From NCBI RefSeq assembly GCF_963921235.1, contig NC_086097.1:154444001-154508000 (forward strand): a stretch of DNA of 64,000 nucleotides. Reading direction: 5' to 3'. Of this stretch, positions 16,679 through 42,645 are shown in pieces (positions within the stretch are counted from its first letter, which is position 1; every line of letters starts with the position of its first letter). This stretch comes from Mobula hypostoma (lineage: Eukaryota). Under the pieces are notes generated by a model. That model ran no database searches. It saw nothing but the letters and a program-made list of their open reading frames with translations, and was not told the DNA's origin. The translations under genes and the position numbers were made by a program.

Positions 16679-17125
16679 GGCAGGTTGAAGGAACAACACT
16701 TTATATTCCGTCTGGGTAGCCTCCAACCTCATGGCATGAACATTGATTTCTCAAACTTACGGTAATGGCTCCCACCATTCCCCATTCCCATTTCCCTCTC
16801 TCTCTTATCTACTTACCTGCCCATTCACCTCCCTCTGGTGCTCCTCCCCCTTCCCTTTCTTCCATGGCCTTTAGTCCTCTCCTATCAGATACCCCTTTCC
16901 TAGCCCTTTATCTCTTTCAGCAATCGACTTCCCAAATCTTTACTCCCCCACCCCGCTTTCACCTATCTCCTTGTATTTCTTCCTTTCCTCCCCCCACCTT
17001 CTTACTCTGACTTCTCATCTTTTTCTCTGCAGTCCTGATGAAGGGTCTCAGCCCGAAATGGTGACTGTTTAGCCTTTTCCATAGATGCTGCCTGGTCTGC
17101 TGGGTTCCTCTAGCATTTTGTGTGC
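16679..17125 (+). mobile_element. Penelope-like element 3' fragment (GIY-YIG C-terminus, pyrimidine-rich UTR, terminal repeat) inserted in a Rex remnant
   Basis: RLKEQHFIFRLGSLQPHGMNIDFSNLR* matches end of ORF 38991..39332; flanks 16640-16675 and 17128-17235 are Rex 3' remnants. Confidence 0.85.
17031..17067 (+). ncRNA. Degenerate PLE hammerhead ribozyme motif (cleavage site mutated)
   Basis: AGTC-CTGATGA-AGGGTCTCAGCCC-GAAA-TGGT-GACTG; core boxes intact, CGTC replaced by TGGT. Confidence 0.65.
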
Positions 17126-17255
17126 GATGCCCTCTTCATGATGCTGCTATAAGACAGGAGATTACAGGAGTTTAAAGACACAAACCTCAAAGTTCAGAAA
17201 CAGATTCCTCCCCAATGCAATCAGATTTTTGAAAGGATGCAAAAAACCCGAACAC

Positions 17256-17383
17256 AAGGAAATCTACAGATGCTGGAATTTCAAGCAACACACATAAAAA
17301 TTGCTGGTGAACGCAGCAGGCCAGGCAGCATCTATAGGAAGAGGTACAGTCGACGTTTTGGGCCGAGACCCTTCGTCAGGACT
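17256..17383 (-). mobile_element. Solo PLE terminal-repeat unit (hammerhead plus 3' structured tail) with 11-bp TSD
   Basis: AACCCGAACAC at 17245-17255 and 17384-17394; insert matches the terminal repeat of the 38903-39665 element. Confidence 0.85.
17348..17383 (-). ncRNA. PLE hammerhead ribozyme motif, single core substitution (GAAA to AAAA)
   Basis: Minus strand AGTC-CTGACGA-AGGGTCTCGGCCC-AAAA-CGTC-GACT. Confidence 0.7.
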
Positions 17384-17439
17384 AACCCGAACACTCATTT
17401 GGACTATATTTCTTATCCCCTCTTTCAACTTGCGCTAGA

Positions 17440-18065
17440 GTGGTCCATCAGAGAAAGGGAAGGAGGAAGGGAGAAAGAAAAGTGACAGGCAGGTGAGGAA
17501 CAGAGAAAGGGTGAGAGAGTAACCAGAATGGGGGATGGAAAAAAAGACAAGGGAAAGACGGAAGATATTACCAGGTTTGAGAACTCAATGTTCATTCCAT
17601 CAGGCTGGAGGCTACCCAGATGGAATATGAAGTGTTATTCCTCCAGTCTGAGGATGACCGCATCATGACAGTAGAGTAGAGGATACAATAGTGCCCCTCC
17701 ACCTTTCCTTTCTCCCATGGTCCACTGTTCTCTCTTTTCAGCTTCCTTCTTTTTCAGCACTTTGCCTCTTCAAGCTATCACCTCCCAGCATCTTTCTTCA
17801 TCCCCCCTCCCCCACCCACCCACCTTCACCCTCACCTGGTCTCACCTATTACCTACCAGCCTGTATTCCATTTCCTCCCCCCACTTTCATATTCTGTCTT
17901 CTGCCCCCCTCCGCACCTTCCTTTCCAGTACTGATGTGGGGTCTCAGCTGAAACGTCGACTCCTTATTCCTCTGTATACAGTATATGCTCCAGACCTGCT
18001 GAGTTCCTGCAGCATTTTGTGCATGTCGTTATGCATTTTAAGCATCTGCAGAATCTCTAGTGTCT
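17440..18065. mobile_element. Head-to-head pair of PLE fragments (minus ~17440-17690, plus ~17690-18065)
   Basis: Minus part encodes LRLEE*HFIFHLGSLQPDGMNIEFSN; plus part is pyrimidine-rich UTR plus terminal repeat ending AGCATCTGCAGAATCTC. Confidence 0.75.
17927..17961 (+). ncRNA. Degenerate PLE hammerhead ribozyme motif
   Basis: AGTA-CTGATGT-GGGGTCTCAGCT-GAAA-CGTC-GACT; A9 changed, stem I mismatch. Confidence 0.55.
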
Positions 18066-19452: not shown

Positions 19453-21131
19453 CAAGGGGAAATCTTCAGATGCTGGAAATCCAAGTACAGGTTTCCCCCG
19501 CCATCCGAAGGTAGAGTGTTCCTATGAAACAGTTCGTAAGTCGAAATATCGTAAAGCGAAGAAGCAATTACCATTTATTTATATGGGAAAATTTTGTGAG
19601 TGTTTGCAGACACAAAAATAACCTACCAAATCATGCCAAATAACACATAAAACCTAAAATAACAGTAACATATATTAAAAGCCAGAATGATATGATAAAT
19701 ACACAGCCTATATAAAGTAGAAATATTTTTCCACAATCATTACTAAACTGTTCTCCGTAGCAAAACTCTCACGCAAGCGCCGTCGGCAGAAAATCTCACA
19801 CAAGCGCTGTTGGCAAAAACACGGCGCAAGCGCTCTCCAGTAATCTTTAAACTATGAAGCTGCCAAATCATACCAAATGGCACGTAAAAATACACAGCCG
19901 ATATAAAGTAGAAATAATGTATGTACAGTGTAGTATCACTTACCGGAATCGGGACAGCGCAGAGCACACTGATGATGGTGTGTTAGGCTGAGTCGTCGCA
20001 GACTGGGTGGTGCAGTGGCCCCCACCCTCCGGGCCACCAACCGATACATTGCCGCGAAGCACGCAGTGGTCCAGCAGTAGCCGGGATGCACCCAGCACAT
20101 CTCTAAGAAAAAAGCCGAAATAAACATGCTAATTGATTACGTGTAGGGCGGCATCTAATTAATTGGCATGTTTATTTCGGCTTTTTTCTTAAAGATGTGC
20201 TGTGTGCCTCCCGGCTACTGCTGCATTCTCCGTGAATCGGTACAGTATCTGTCCGGGGCCCGGGTGTTGGGGTGGTGGGACACGGGGGTGTCATCTCATC
20301 ATCGATCAGGGCAGGCAGCTCATCTTCTTCTATGATTGCCTGCCTTAATGTCGAAGCTCAAGGTTTGTCGTCTGCTGTGGCTGATGCGGAAGGCTTGCTT
20401 GACTGCTGAGCCTCGCGCATTTTTCTATCATACAGTTCTTTGTAAGGACTCAAAGAATCTTGCAAATATCCCCTAAACCTACATACCCTTTCAAAATTAA
20501 AGCCATACTTTATCATTACTCATTCGGTTTCAATTGTTATCCTTTCCTCTTCCAATTGCATCAGCTCTTCATCTATCAGTTCTTGGTCATGGGATGCCAA
20601 AACCTCTTCAAAATCATCTTCATCAGCTTCCACGAGCCAAACTCATTTTGTCTTTGCTTCATTCACCACGATCAAAATGCTTAATTACGTCTAGTTTTAT
20701 GTTAAGTGTAACACCCTTACGAGCTATTTCAGGCTTTTCCGACACCATAGAACTCATCTTGCAAACGACTGCTCACGGGCTCATGTTAAAGCAATGCTGG
20801 CGAGAATGCCGTTCCGAATCCGGGGAGAGCGGCTGCTCGGGGCGCGCGCTGCTTTTTATTACGCGGTGATTTTTTTCGCGCGGTGATTTTTTTCGCGCGC
20901 TGAATTTTTTATTGCGCGCTGAATTTTTTTCATAACAGTGAAAACACCTTCTGAAAGTGAAAACAGGGTACTAACGTAGGTTTTTCGTAACAGTGAGGTT
21001 TCGTAAAGGGAACGTTCGAAAAGTGGGGACACCTGTAACACATAAAATGCTGGAGAGACTCAGCAGGCCAGGCAGCATCTATGGAAAAGAATATAGTCAA
21101 TGTTTCAGGTCGAGAACCTTCAGCAGGACTG
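19451..21131 (-). mobile_element. PLE terminal-repeat unit split by the Tigger element
   Basis: AACAAGGGGAAATCTTCAGATGCTGGAAATCCAAGTA continues as TAACACATAAAATGCTGG...CAGGACTG; decayed hammerhead 21095-21130 (minus: CTGCTGA-AGGTTCTCGACCT-GAAA-CATT). Confidence 0.85.
19488..21035 (-). mobile_element. Internally deleted Tigger/pogo-type DNA transposon (1548 bp)
   Basis: TA duplication 19486-87 and 21036-37; termini CAGGTTTCCCC / CAGGTGTCCCC (revcomp); minus strand from 20757 MSSMVSEKPEIARKGVTLNIKLDVIKHFDRGE (CENP-B-type N-terminal HTH) joined to acidic C-terminal EADEDDFEEVLASHDQELIDEELMQLEEE and FNFER..YKELYDRKMREAQQS. Confidence 0.88.
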
Positions 21132-21252
21132 AGCAGCAGAGATCACAGACGGGGATCAATGAGAGAGGGTTTCACTGAACTCCGAACAAAGGGAAGATTT
21201 AACTTCTTCAGGGAAGGCATCCCTAGAAAAGACTTCGCAGTGTAGTAATCCA

Positions 21253-21385
21253 ATCACAAACAAGAGAAAATCTGCAGTTGCTGGAAATCCAAGCAACACA
21301 CAGAAAATGCTAGAGGAACTCAGCAGGCCAGGCAGCATCTATGGAAAGGAGTACAGTCGACGTTATGGACTGAGACCCTTCAATA
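21253..21385 (-). mobile_element. PLE terminal-repeat unit, hammerhead decayed/truncated
   Basis: AACAAGAGAAAATCTGCAG..GCTGGAAATCCAAGCAACAC..CAGCAGGCCAGGCAGCATCTATGG..AGTCGACGTT. Confidence 0.8.
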
Positions 21386-36945: not shown

Positions 36946-38990
36946 AAATTACTCTTTAGATATAAACCATAGTGAACAGAGGAGAAACAGAATGTAGCAA
37001 ATAATTATTCCTGCTGAGGACTGAGGGCTATTTACATTAGTCATGACTTAATTGATTTAACATTGTCCAACTAACTACGGTATTAATATCTCTTTTACCA
37101 CAACCGTGTAAAATGTAAGAGATCAGGATATTTAAGGTTAATACTATGTCTGCCATAAAACACAGAGAATGTGTGACTATAAACTTATATGCAGATAATC
37201 TTAATATTTACTACAATAGGCTAAAATATTCATAACTATCTCAGGACCATCTTTGTTTTCTATTTGCTGTTCATTCTCTCAATGGTTTGTGGTCATGCTA
37301 TCCTCAGGCTTTCCCATATGAGGCATTATTTCTTCAGCTTCGTTTTTGTTTGCTTGAACATTCTAGTGTGGGCCCATGTCTTCACTCGTTGAAGTTATTA
37401 GTATTCAGTCAAAGGCCAATTCTGACCTGTATAGTAGAGCATACTTGCTACAGCAATATATCACTGTGGTCATTGATCATTAAGTCAGCATAGGTCACAA
37501 TGACCTCACCAAAGCCTGCTCCAAGAGGCAGCCAGCCACAGTACCATGTCAAAGCAGGCACCTTTAGTGCTACTTACTAAATGATGCCTTACTGTTGTTT
37601 GTCAAGAACTCTATCACCTGTTTTTGTTAAATTTCATACCCTTCACTAACTCCACCTATTAATATTTTTACCCTTCATTGTTCTGTTATATTCCTTTTAG
37701 TAAATCTATAATTTATTGCTTTGTAAAACAAGTATGAAACCTCATTTCCCTCTTTTAACATTTAATCTAAGAGACTGGGATATCTAAGAATCGTGCAAGA
37801 AATTTAACATTTTCTTGAGCCTTAAACAGGTTCTCACCTGTTTATAAATATTGAGGATCATGAAATTATTTCCATTGAATCACTGTCTCACCGATAGTAG
37901 AATATGTGACAACATTTTCTTTCATCGGAAACTGGTGAGGAGAAACTGGGTTAATCGCACATTTATATTGGTGATCATCAGCCTTCTCTTGTTAAAGTGC
38001 AGATTAAACAATCACTAGCTGAATGAGTGCAAATGAAATTTTACACTTATAGTCTTAATTGAAAAATTAATTAAAGTTAAGAAAATTCAAACATGTTGAG
38101 TAAAAGAGGTGCAGCCCTTCAAATTATGTTAGAACTAAGCATTATGCCCAGAAATAAGATTGCATGTAATTGTCATGCACTAAAGCATGAATATATTCTT
38201 TGTCAATGATCAATTGGATTCCTTACAAGAAAAGTAAATAAATTAGTTACCAAGATATCAAGTGAGTGTTAGATTGGCCAAAACCCAGAACTAAGCTCTA
38301 AAACAGCACAAGACCCAATGCAACTCTTCATTTCTCTGAACAATACAGCCAGAAAGGACATCACCACTATCAATAGCAACCAGGTGTCAGGGACATAAAC
38401 CTGGTCACATGGATGCTGCTAATGAAGGAAGACAGTTCCTCACAGTCACTCAGATAGAAGCATGTCCGGAGGAGGTCCCATGTACCAATGGGGCGTGGAG
38501 GTAGGAACCTGTATGGTGATCTGTAACTACTGCTTATGCCTCAAGAATAGAGATTTTCACTGGGAGAATGTACTAAAGTGAGATGCTTTTCATCAGGCAA
38601 TGCAGAGATGCTTTTGTAAGCCAGTTAACTAACAGAAGCAGAGACTTATTCAATCAGTGCACTGGATCTGCAAATGTGAGGGATTTTTTATACATCTTCT
38701 GGATTCTCCCATCTGATTAGCGTATTACATTGGTAGGAAGGATTGTATGTTTATGTTTCTTAACACTGCAGTATGGATTACATTAAGGCAATATATTTTA
38801 CTTATGAAATTTGTCTCTATATTAAAGAGTCCTTTATATGCCATGTGACCACTTCCTGCTTCCTCTTCTTGTCTAGGAGGTGAGCCTACGGATTGTGAAC
38901 AACAGGAATTCTGCAGATGCTGGAAATTCAAGCAACACACATAAAAGTTGCTGGTGAACGCAGCAGGCCAGGCAGCATCTCTAGGAAGAG

Positions 38991-39332
38991 GTGCAGTCCT
39001 TCCAGGTGAGGCAACACTTCACCTGTGAGTCAGCTGGGGTGATATACTGTGTCTGGTGTTCCCGATGTGGCCTTTTATATATTGGCGAGACCCGACACAG
39101 ACTGGGAGACCGCTTTGCTGAACACCTACGTTCTGTCCGCCAGAGAAAGCAGGATCTCCCAGTGGCCACACATTTTAATTCCACATCCCATTCCCATTCT
39201 GACATGTCTATCCACGGCGTCCTCTACTGTAAAGATGAAGCCACACTCAGGTTGGAGGAACAACACCTTATATTCCGTCTGGGTAGCCTCCAACCTGATG
39301 GCATGAACATCGACTTCTCTAACTTCCGCTAA
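38991..39332 (+). pseudogene. PLE GIY-YIG endonuclease domain (uninterrupted frame, lacks upstream RT and a real start)
   Basis: GVIYCVWCSRCGLLYIGET.HRLGDRFAEH...HF...EEQHLI..GMN; CxxC between GIY and YIG as in PLE endonucleases; the GTG start comes from the inverted arm. Confidence 0.9.
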
Positions 39333-39614
39333 TGCCCCACCTCCCCCTCGTACCCCATCTGTTACTTATTTTTAAACACACATTCTTTCTCTCACTCTCC
39401 TTTTTCTCCCTCTGTTCCTCTGAATATACCCCTTGCCCATCCTCTGGGTCCCCCACCGCCTCCCCCTGTCTTTCTTCCCGGACCTCCTGTCCCATGATCC
39501 TCTCGTATCCCTTTTGCCTATCACCTGTCCAGCTCTTGGCTCTATCCCTCCCCCTCCTGTCTTCTCCCCCTCCCCCTCCAACTTTCAAATCCCTTACTCA
39601 CTCTTCCTTCAGTT

Positions 39615-39650
39615 AGTCCTGACGAAGGGTCTCGGCCTGAAACGTCGACT
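39615..39650 (+). ncRNA. Minimal type I hammerhead ribozyme, intact core; predicted cleavage after 39646
   Basis: AGTC(39615-18) CTGACGA(39619-25) AGG-GTCTCGG-CCT(39626-38) GAAA(39639-42) CGTC(39643-46) GACT(39647-50); stem I AGUC/GACU, helix II AGG/CCU, helix III reduced to palindromic ACGU. Confidence 0.85.
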
Positions 39651-40149
39651 GCACCTCTTCATATAGATTGTGAACAAAAACATATTCCTGATAGTCTTAC
39701 TGTTTCTCCTGCTTCTGAAAGACACAGTCCTTTAGTCTCCATCCTGTCCTCCACCATGAGCTTCAATCTTCAAGTGCTGATGTTTGACAACACATAGTAG
39801 AGATTGATGAGATCTTTACATCTGCTTGGTTAACTCCTGGACTTTTACTGCCAAAGAAATCAGATTTTTAGGAGCCCTATGATATTTTCCATTGGTACCA
39901 GTAATTGTGTGACTGTTTTAATCTTCATTCAGCTGCTGTGGTTAGAGACAGGGCTGGTTTGAATAGCCAGAGAAGTAAAGGGCAGTGATAGCCACTGGCG
40001 ATGTCCAGCATTGCTGAATTCCTCAGGATAAAGAAGCTGTACGTGCTTCACTGAAAGACAGTATTCACCATGAGGAAATCCTCATGATTTGCAAGGTTTT
40101 ACACATTGAGCCAGTGTTCCCGATTTACAAAAATATCTGGACTATGATT

Positions 40150-42645
40150 GATATATTCTGGGCCAGGAGGACTACACCCCAAGATTTTGAAAGAGGTAGC
40201 TGAAAGGATTGTGGAGGCATTAGTAATGATCTTTCAAGAATCACGAGATTCTGGAATGATTCCAGAGGTCTGGAAAATTGCAAATATTAATCCACTCTTA
40301 AGTAGGGAGGGAGGCAGAAAAAAGGAAATTATTGGCCATTTAGCCTGACTTCAGCAGTTGGGAAGATGTTGGAAAATCTCTATTATTTGGAGGCACATGT
40401 CAAAATAAGCCAAAGTCAGCATGGATTTCTAAAAGGGAAATCTTACCTGACAAACCTATTAGAATTATTTGAGGAGGTAACAGACAGGATAGATAAAGGA
40501 GCATCAGTAGATGTTGTTTTCTTGGACTTTCAGATGGCATTTAACAAGGTGCTACACATGAGGCTGCTTAAGAAGATAAGTGCTCATGGTATTGCAGGAA
40601 AGATATTAACATGTATAGAATATTGGCTGACTGACAGGCGGCAAAGAGTGGGAGTAAATGGGGTCTCATATGGTTTGTGACTGCCACTAGTGGTGTTCCA
40701 AGGGGTCAGTGTAGGGACTGCTTCTTTTCACGTTATATGTCTATGAAGGTTTACAAGTTGAACTTCAATGAAGATGGTGCCAGTGAACAACGCGACCAAG
40801 GGTGTCCTCCTCCATTCATTTCACTGAACTACTTCTTTCACCTCTTTTTGTTTCAACTATGGTTCTGCTACTGTTGGAGTCTATTATCTACATTTTGCTG
40901 GTGTGTTTTCAGGCCGATTAGTGATCTGGCACTTTGCTGTCTCCGAGTGGTCTTGGTGAAGTTTCAAGCAAAGTGTGCAGCCTGGAGACAGGTCATGGAC
41001 CTATAATCGACCCTTTTTTCTCCCTGATCTTGCTAACTAAATCATCAAGGAAGATTGAAATCATTAAGGAGAGTGGAGGTGAGTGGGTGTTCAGCACCAT
41101 CTACCTGTGGGTGACCGGGTTCTCTCTCCCTCTCGCTTGCTGCTGCCATAAGAAGATGACAACGTGCGATGGTCTCTTTCTCCCTCTCATCCATTGCTCC
41201 CAGAGGAAGATCCCTGTGTTCGAATGGTCTCTCTCTCCCTCTTGCTGGATACTGCTGGAGGATGGTGCTGGAGTCCTGGGTCTTAACCGATGTGAGTTGT
41301 GGACTGGACTCTGTAGTTCGCATTATGATGTGTTTCTGGTTTCTGGTTGCCCCTTTTTTTGTTGCTATTTTGTGCAATTTTGATCAAGGAGAACATGCTC
41401 TGCAACCTGAAGTCAATGAACAACATAGCACTAGTTTGAACTGAACTGAACTGAGCTGAACTGGGTATGCCAGGAATGATTCGATGATTTGTGACTTGAT
41501 GTTTCATATTCTGTGCTTTTTGCTTTTTTTTTGCTGTTTGCGTGATGTGTTCTTTTTATTTTGCACGTTGTGTGTGTGATGTTTCTCTCTGAATGGGGTC
41601 CATGGTTTTCTTTCTTTGTTTTGTGGCTCTCTGTGGAAAGATGAATCTCAGAGTTGTATACAGTACTGCACATATACTTTAAACTGAGAACTTTGAACCT
41701 GAACTTTGATACGGATGACTGAATTGATGGATTTGTGGCTACATTTGTTGACAATACAAAGATTAATGGAGGGGCAGGTAGCATTGAGAAAGCAGGAGTG
41801 CACAGAAGGATGGAATAGGAGAATGGACAAAGAAAGAGCAAATGGAATATGGTGTAGGGAAGTATAGAAGGAGTAAAAGTGCAGACTATTTTCTAAAAGG
41901 GAAGAAAATTCAAAAATCAGAGGTGCAAAGGGACTTGAGAGTCCTTGTGCAGGGTTCCTTAATTGTTAACTTGTAGGTTGAGAGTGGGGAAGGAAGGCAA
42001 ATGCATTATTAGCATCCATTGCAACAGGACTAGAATATCAAAGCAAGCAGGTTAGACTGAATCGTTATTGGTCAGACTGTACTTGGAGTACTGTGAGCAG
42101 TGTTAGGCTTCTGTTCTAAGAAAGGATGAGGTGGCATTGGAGAGGGTCCAGAGCAGGTTTGTGAGAATGATCTCTGGAATTAAAGGGTTAACACATGAGG
42201 AGCTTTTGATGGCTCTGGGTCTGTATATGATGGAGTTTAGAAGAATGAGGGGCAATCTCATTGAATCCTGTTGAATATTGAAAGGCCTAGATAGAGTGGA
42301 TGTGGAGAAAAAGATTCCAATAGTGGGAGAGTCTAAGACCAAAAGACACGGCATCAGAATAGTGGGACACCCCTTTAGAACAGAAATGAGGAGTTATTTC
42401 TTTAGTCAGAGGGGAGTAAATCAGTGAAATTCATTGCCACTGACAGCTGTAGAGGCTAAATCATTTAGTATACTTAAAGTGGAGGTTGACAGGTTATTGA
42501 TTAGTAAGGGCATCAAAGGTTATGGGAAGAAGCCTGCAGAATGGGGTTAGGAGGGATAATAAATCAGTCATGATGGAATGGTGGAGTAGACTTGATGGGC
42601 CGAATACACTAATTCTGCTCCTATGTCTTATGGTCTTATGGTCTA
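40150..42645 (+). mobile_element. Degenerate CR1 (40150-40747 and ~41708-42645) split by a non-coding insertion
   Basis: GPGGLHPKILKEVAE, QSQHGF, DFQMAFNKVLH on left; ATFVDNTKI, ALGLY..EFRR and (TCTTATGG)n tail on right. Confidence 0.85.
40748..41707 (+). mobile_element. Unclassified non-coding retroposon with Rex-type 3' end
   Basis: Interrupts CR1 cleanly; AAGATGGTGCC near 5' end; internal (GAACT)n; 3' GAATCTCAGAGTTGTATAC...(GAACTTT/GAACCT)n tail also seen inverted at ~49578-49650. Confidence 0.6.

What the first reader, a model, noticed from the sequence alone, without database searches (positions are those of the whole stretch)
38891..39677. Inverted PLE arm stops at the predicted ribozyme cleavage site
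Seen: within a 12-bp TSD (GATTGTGAACAA) the insert is [inverted 3' tail 38903-38998] + [GIY-YIG, UTR, hammerhead, ~20 nt of tail]. On the minus strand the inverted arm starts GACTGCACCTCTTC, exactly the 5' end of the predicted 3' cleavage product (GUC/GACUG). The junction also has 5 nt of microhomology (CAGTC) with the ORF, so the breakpoint is ambiguous over 38994-38998. Inference: reverse transcription ran off a ribozyme-cut RNA end and was joined by microhomology to a second, oppositely primed cDNA. That would be a genomic fossil of in vivo cleavage.
Basis: partly seen in the sequence, partly recalled or inferred. Interest (0 to 1): 0.72.

Follow-up and report, generated by a model that had tools for sequence, protein, structure and literature searches.

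The report
Two-armed Penelope insertion, cut-site match weak
This is one head-to-head insertion of a very common Penelope-type jumping gene whose short arm ends at the predicted cut site of the element's hammerhead ribozyme, but a 5-base overlap likely explains this junction, and across the genome arms end about five times more often 31 bases further on, so it is at most a weak hint that the ribozyme cuts in living cells.

Summary
The anatomy is as described: 12-bp target duplication, inverted tail arm starting at GUC/GACUG, GIY-YIG fragment, minimal hammerhead, 5-nt CAGTC overlap. Arm ends are spread over the whole tail and ribozyme: 2 of 101 unselected ends lie at the cut, 29 at -30..-32. 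Position -31, the hammerhead's front edge, holds about 4,000 ends against about 750 at the cut. After removing two helix-I junction classes, the cut site keeps a one-base peak of about 129 ends, against 32-60 at five neighbours and about 80 and 57 at two C-ending controls (1.6x and 2.3x). The exact junction recurs once, independently, at the longest overlap available. Two-sided priming is well supported: 134 of 140 two-armed copies pair one long and one short tail end. Verdict: ordinary Neptune-type insertion; occasional in vivo cleavage is possible but not shown, and this locus cannot show it. The scan reported the same pattern earlier in this and other genomes.

The parts
38891..38902 (+). 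Target-site duplication, left copy (last 5 letters also match the tail's far start site)
   Evidence: (D13)
38903..38998 (-). Inverted arm: tail from the long (about +100) start site back to the predicted cut site; no hammerhead core
38994..38998 (.). CAGTC overlap shared by arm end and ORF; breakpoint ambiguous over these 5 bases
38994..39332 (+). 3' fragment of the ORF: GIY-YIG endonuclease with CxxC between GIY and YIG, ending in TAA
39333..39614 (+). Pyrimidine-rich untranslated part of the pseudo-LTR; body 92% identical to reference copy L418
39615..39650 (+). Minimal type I hammerhead: helix I AGTC/GACT, CTGACGA 39619-39625, GAAAC-GTC, predicted cut between 39646 and 39647; family 5'-end hot spot corresponds to 39611-39617
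   Evidence: PMC4209133
39647..39665 (+). Short tail of the long arm (14 nt exact plus 5 letters, or 22 nt with 2 mismatches reaching into the duplication)
39666..39677 (+). Target-site duplication, right copy
   Evidence: D13

Best explanation
This is a 5'-truncated, two-armed insertion of a Neptune-type Penelope-like retrotransposon, likely made when both nicked target strands primed reverse transcription at two different start points in the tail and the two cDNAs were likely joined at the shared CAGTC, with no ribozyme cut needed. Shown: the duplication, the two arms, the overlap, the two-start-site rule and the genome-wide spread of arm ends. Inferred: staggered nicking 12 bp apart; one cDNA ran through the uncut hammerhead into the ORF, the other stopped in or near CAGTC for any of the reasons that stop arms all along the tail; annealing of the 5 complementary bases fixed the junction. 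Inferred: the family's main 5' end, at the hammerhead's front edge (-30 to -36), marks where much of the copied RNA begins.
For: Arm ends cover +29 to -32, with 2 of 101 at the cut and 29 at -30..-32. In a second sample, 44 of 94 true ends between -14 and -57 lie at -30..-36 and 9 beyond -39 (first 100 of 7,362 rows, by eye). Position -31: 1,261 matches, 99 of 100 listed rows true, about 4,000 after pass-rate correction, against about 750 at the cut. Overlap-driven junction classes arise wherever sequence allows: 43 of 100 rows at +4 are palindrome joins, 30 of 100 at the cut join helix I by AGTC. Of 10 distinct junctions into the ORF near this site, 2 start at the cut, both at the 5-base overlap; the other 8 start elsewhere, most with 2-5 shared bases (by eye). 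Two-site rule 134 of 140 classifiable of 193 two-armed copies; duplications mostly 12-15 bp. In a lizard PLE, hammerhead mutants insert normally in vitro, both strands are nicked and extended, RT starts at two internal sites, and no RNA-seq reads ended at the cut (PMC11167929).
Against: The cut site is a one-base peak: about 129 non-helix-I ends (95% range 102-158) against 44, 60, 59, 32, 36 at +3, +2, +1, -1, -2 (2.8x) and 1.6x (1.1-2.3) and 2.3x (1.5-3.5) over C-ending controls at +4 and +19. Most of those junctions have 0-1 shared base or filler (23 of 28). Cut-site arms start at the short site more often than neighbours do (15:9 against 20:45, p 0.013, post hoc), so they may be a distinct class; the window's own arm, however, is a long-site arm. 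The same junction arose twice independently.
Confidence: 0.65

Rival explanations
1. One reading: the hammerhead cut this RNA in the germ line, reverse transcriptase ran off the 5'-OH end at GACUG, and the finished cDNA annealed by its last 5 bases to the second cDNA. A tandem transcript carries two hammerhead-plus-tail units, so one can be cut while the other is read through.
For: Sharp one-base excess at the cut, 1.6-2.8x; clean solo copies that end at the cut next to their duplication exist (L347 no overlap, L354 2-base overlap); skew to short-site arms; L534 shows the tandem unit with hammerhead and tail both before and after the ORF, 3,477 nt apart; hammerhead core intact with palindromic ACGU for dimer folding (PMC4209133).
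Against: The excess accounts for only about 40-55% of non-helix-I cut-site ends, and this junction has a 5-base overlap that suffices. The cut is a minor end (about one fifth of -31). 7 of 13 non-inverted cut-site ends examined show no adjacent duplication and may be later breaks. Minimal PLE hammerheads cleave poorly in vitro (PMC4209133). No raw RNA reads were available.
Confidence: 0.25
2. Structure, not cutting: reverse transcriptase pauses as it leaves helix I and enters the folded or protein-bound core, or a single cDNA folds back on itself through helix I letters, which gives ends at the same base without any cleavage.
For: 47 of 100 listed cut-site junctions join the helix I region (30 CTGAC, 17 AGGAC), as fold-back at AGTC/GACT would give; self-priming was proposed for palindromic PLE junctions (PMC3846280 passages).
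Against: Fold-back of one cDNA would end both arms at the same tail site, but only 6 of 140 do. A pause would more likely be broad, while +1 and -1 are low (59, 32). Skips across the core without inversion are rare: 6 genome-wide, 1 from the cut.
Confidence: 0.1

Closest known systems
Endonuclease-bearing Penelope-like element insertions with adjoining inverted 5'-truncated copy, pseudo-LTR, optional tail and target duplication (PMC8557442 passages; PMC3846280 passages)
   Same: Inverted 5'-truncated copy next to the body, duplication of about 8-15 bp, hammerhead in the pseudo-LTR, optional extension of about 35 nt between the two tail ends (about +65-70 and +102).
   Different: Here the inverted arm holds only the tail and the long arm has a very short tail; arm-end frequencies are measured genome-wide.
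Poseidon element of Anolis carolinensis, in vitro (PMC11167929, parts 1-2 of 4 read)
   Same: Both strands nicked and extended; two internal reverse-transcription start sites that define the tail; hammerhead upstream of them.
   Different: That element's ORF starts within the hammerhead, and its clade lacks the linker zinc motif (PMC8557442); here the ORF starts after the tail and has CX4CxxC. That paper found no reads ending at the cut and, in the parts read, did not tabulate genomic 5' ends; its supplements were not seen.
Minimal type I hammerheads of metazoan PLEs (PMC4209133, parts 1-2 of 4 read)
   Same: Conserved core, short helix I, no helix III beyond a palindromic ACGU, dimer-type design.
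   Different: Helix II here is only about 4 bp against 7-8 bp in the Schistosoma motifs; activity of this motif is untested.
Twin priming of L1 (Ostertag and Kazazian 2001; recalled, not read here)
   Same: Both target strands prime; inversion joined through a few shared bases inside one duplication.
   Different: L1 arms copy different parts of the RNA; here both arms copy the same tail from two fixed start points.

Membership tests
Endonuclease-bearing Penelope-like elements | Single ORF with reverse transcriptase and C-terminal GIY-YIG | tested here: met
   GIY-YIG in the window; in the longer copy L533, RVT_1 E 2.9e-5 (below curated cut-off) with YIDD, followed by GIY-YIG E 0.009 in another frame
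Endonuclease-bearing Penelope-like elements | Pseudo-LTRs from partial tandems, with hammerhead | tested here: met
   L534: hammerhead and tail at both ends of the ORF, plus an inverted truncated copy
Endonuclease-bearing Penelope-like elements | Optional 30-40 bp tail extension | tested here: met
   Tail ends peak at about +65-70 and +102
Neptune/Nematis clades | CX2-5CxxC zinc-finger-like linker between RT and endonuclease (PMC8557442) | tested here: met
   CKRNKCYTC just before GIY-YIG in L418 and L533
Neptune clade proper | RT phylogeny | not tested
   No labelled reference RTs at hand; 'Neptune-type' rests on the linker motif only
Minimal type I hammerhead | Core CUGANGA / GAAA / NUH with helix I closing and palindromic 15.2-16.2 | tested here: met
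   AGTC CTGACGA ... GAAAC GTC GACT at 39615-39650; Rfam gathering search negative; single-strand folding does not give the active fold
Minimal type I hammerhead | Self-cleavage at GUC | not testable with these tools
   Needs RNA assay; only contigs, no raw reads
   1.6-2.8x one-base excess, about one fifth of the -31 peak

The most novel reading that the evidence does not exclude
A few hundred of this family's insertions are copies of RNA already cut by its minimal hammerhead, so the one-base peak at GUC/GACUG is genomic evidence that a metazoan Penelope hammerhead cleaves in the germ line, occasionally and without being required, while most templates begin 31 bases upstream.
Probability: 0.4. 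Interest if true: 0.6.

Novelty: new member of a known kind. Interest (0 to 1): 0.3.

Why it matters
Whether the hammerheads of animal Penelope-like elements cut in vivo is open: they cleave weakly in vitro (PMC4209133) and were dispensable, with no matching RNA-seq ends, in the one reconstituted element (PMC11167929). A family with tens of thousands of arm ends makes this testable from DNA alone. The result here bounds the effect: cleaved templates are at most a small minority, and the dominant 5' end lies at the ribozyme's front edge. The single locus adds little.

Tried and rejected
Rfam at gathering score: no match in the window. Sequencing runs: no RNA holder listed, contigs only; laying 4 runs gave no usable starts or joints. 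A copied master element with this junction: rejected, only 2 exact junctions genome-wide, with different duplications and arm lengths. One cDNA folding back as the general mechanism: rejected by the two-site rule. The DNA search was biased toward CAGTC-C-T ends by its query, so its palindromes were left out of frequency counts. Extra A after the last templated base as a run-off mark: also common at neighbours and at +19 (by eye), dropped. Splicing as the cause of the -31 peak: the sequence before helix I looks like a splice acceptor, but rows show no shared upstream exon. The first attempt at concordance for the second diagnostic letter read the wrong column and was redone. Literature: 5 searches listed no paper that maps PLE genomic 5' ends against the hammerhead cut; subscription papers and supplements were not searched or seen.

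Full report
Observation. The coordinates hold. A 12-bp direct repeat flanks the insert. The left 96 bases are the reverse complement of the element's tail and begin, on the minus strand, at the base after the hammerhead's GTC. The body is a GIY-YIG fragment, an untranslated stretch and a minimal hammerhead at 39615-39650. Untruncated copies show that the ORF shares exactly CAGTC with the arm end. Positions below count from the predicted cut: 0 = arm ends at the cut, + = stops short of it, - = reads through it.

The family. The window lies on contig C1 of a 3.5-Gb genome. One 29-letter ORF word has at least 17,381 exact copies. Locus L534 shows the whole arrangement: inverted truncated copy, then hammerhead and tail, a long ORF, untranslated part, hammerhead and tail again, 3,477 nt from hammerhead to hammerhead. 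L533 has an RT domain with YIDD and a CX4CxxC linker before the endonuclease; PMC8557442 (passages) gives that linker for Neptune and Nematis. I built no RT tree, so 'Neptune-type' rests on the motif.

How two-armed copies form. Among 193 two-armed copies in the fetched loci, tail ends cluster at about +65-70 and +102; of 140 with both ends classifiable, 134 have one of each, 5 two short and 1 two long; the other 53 had an end too short or unplaced. The arms share subfamily letters in 149 of 164 and 168 of 194 pairs, against 50% and 55% for random pairs. These loci were selected by arm-end patterns, not at random. This fits priming from both nicked strands at two start sites on RNA from one source, as PMC11167929 found in vitro for a lizard element (parts 1-2 of 4 read). 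It argues against one cDNA folding back.

I counted arm ends with patterns made of a tail anchor, two non-matching letters at the chosen position and a distant check that rejects intact copies. Whole-genome counts: +4 159, +3 50, +2 100, +1 98, 0 294, -1 56, -2 89, +19 196. Listed rows (all rows, or the first 100) were sorted by eye into true ends and point mutants that carry on; a script on the first 30 loci gave 19 against my 19 at +1 and 17 against my 18 at -1. True ends: +3 44 of 50, +2 60 of 100, +1 59 of 98, -1 32 of 56, -2 36 of 89. At 0, of 100 rows 9 were false, 30 join helix I through AGTC, 17 read AGGAC into the core and 44 were other, giving about 129 other ends (102-158), 2.8 times the neighbour mean. 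Because an arm ending in C finds overlap easily in the pyrimidine-rich partner strand, I added C-ending controls: +4 had 50 other of 100 rows (43 palindrome joins and 7 false left out), about 80; +19 had 29 other of 100 (11 joins to the hammerhead edge and 60 false left out), about 57. Ratios are 1.6 (1.1-2.3) and 2.3 (1.5-3.5). So a one-base excess remains, about 40-55% of those ends. It does not rest on long overlaps: 23 of 28 inverted junctions have 0-1 shared base or filler. Cut-site arms come more often from the short start site (15:9 against 20:45, p 0.013), a post hoc result on small numbers.

The main hot spot is elsewhere. In 101 unselected ends between +31 and -32, 2 lie at 0 and 29 at -30..-32 (this stratum excludes the helix-I class by design). 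In the first 100 of 7,362 rows covering -14 to -57, 94 were true ends: 44 at -30..-36, 11 at -31 alone, 9 beyond -39 (by eye). A direct count at -31 gave 1,261 matches, 99 of 100 rows true, about half not inverted. With rough pass-rate corrections that is about 4,000 ends against about 750 at the cut. About a dozen of the -31 rows restart at CCTTCG, a slip back to -19, as if the template ended there. A solo hammerhead-plus-tail copy with this 5' end lies in the window at about 17245-17394. A transcription start, a trimmed RNA end at helix I or a protein footprint could each give this; I could not tell them apart. The initiator-like TTCAGT just upstream is a recalled motif, not a tool result.

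This junction. It occurs exactly twice in the genome; the second copy has another duplication and other arm lengths, so it formed independently. CAGTC is the only overlap of 5 or more bases between this arm end and the body from -250 to -1100. Three gap patterns found 10 distinct junctions into this part of the ORF; 2 start at the cut and the rest at about +29, +27, +26, +16, +6, +5, -16 and -20, mostly with 2-5 shared bases (by eye; the patterns do not cover all end pairs evenly). Overlap alone can thus place this junction, and cleavage cannot be shown or excluded at this locus. I put 0.25 on a cleaved template here and 0.4 on cleavage explaining the family-wide excess.

Comparison. Inverted 5'-truncated copies, tails and palindromic junctions are standard for these elements (PMC8557442, PMC3846280, passages). 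Minimal PLE hammerheads are known and cleave weakly (PMC4209133, parts 1-2 of 4). A 2026 preprint on animal retrozymes (10.64898/2026.07.22.740005, passages) does not treat junctions in the passages seen. Five searches listed no paper mapping genomic 5' ends against the cut; supplements, such as Fig. S2 of PMC11167929, were not seen and may bear on this. Earlier reports of this scan, looked up after my own counts, state the same three points in this and other genomes: main end at the hammerhead's edge, two start sites, small excess at the cut. They are unchecked notes, not independent support.

Verdict. Observation confirmed; interpretation partly supported; an ordinary member of a known kind, with a modest family-level hint worth a bench test. 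Interest 0.3.

Noticed in passing
G000 arm junctions, e.g. L162, L180, C2:173972420: Nine arm ends are followed by TTAGGG telomere-repeat filler; three begin with the same letters GCATTAGGG, two of them one base past the predicted cut and one at -35. This may be copying from telomerase RNA during end joining (inferred, telomerase RNA not checked).
   Followed up: partly
window 17245-17394: Solo hammerhead-plus-tail mini-copy of the same family with an 11-bp duplication; its 5' end lies at -32..-35, the family hot spot.
   Followed up: partly
family-wide, window equivalent 39611-39617: 5' ends pile up at the hammerhead's front edge, about five times the cut site; several slip back and recopy CCTTCG. 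The upstream sequence looks like both an initiator and a splice acceptor; PMC4209133 notes an intron ending at helix I in Drosophila Penelope.
   Followed up: partly
L095, L110, L117, L119, L193, L198 and similar: Two recurring junction forms (CAGTC-AGGAC-GAAGGG, about 50 genome-wide; CAG-GACT-GACG, 8) differ from the helix-I palindrome by a 2-base inversion and need two template switches; skips without inversion are rare (6).
   Followed up: partly
window 40306-40740: Decayed reverse-transcriptase fragment of an unrelated non-LTR element (Pfam RVT_1, E 9e-9).
   Followed up: no
window 17031-17130, 17575-18054, 21038-21358: Older, more diverged hammerhead-and-tail repeats of related families, some in head-to-head pairs.
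   Followed up: no
L446, L236, L471: A subfamily with the same tail but another sequence upstream of the hammerhead (reads GGATTTGACTGCTAC on the arm strand); its helix I differs and it could serve as a natural control.
   Followed up: no
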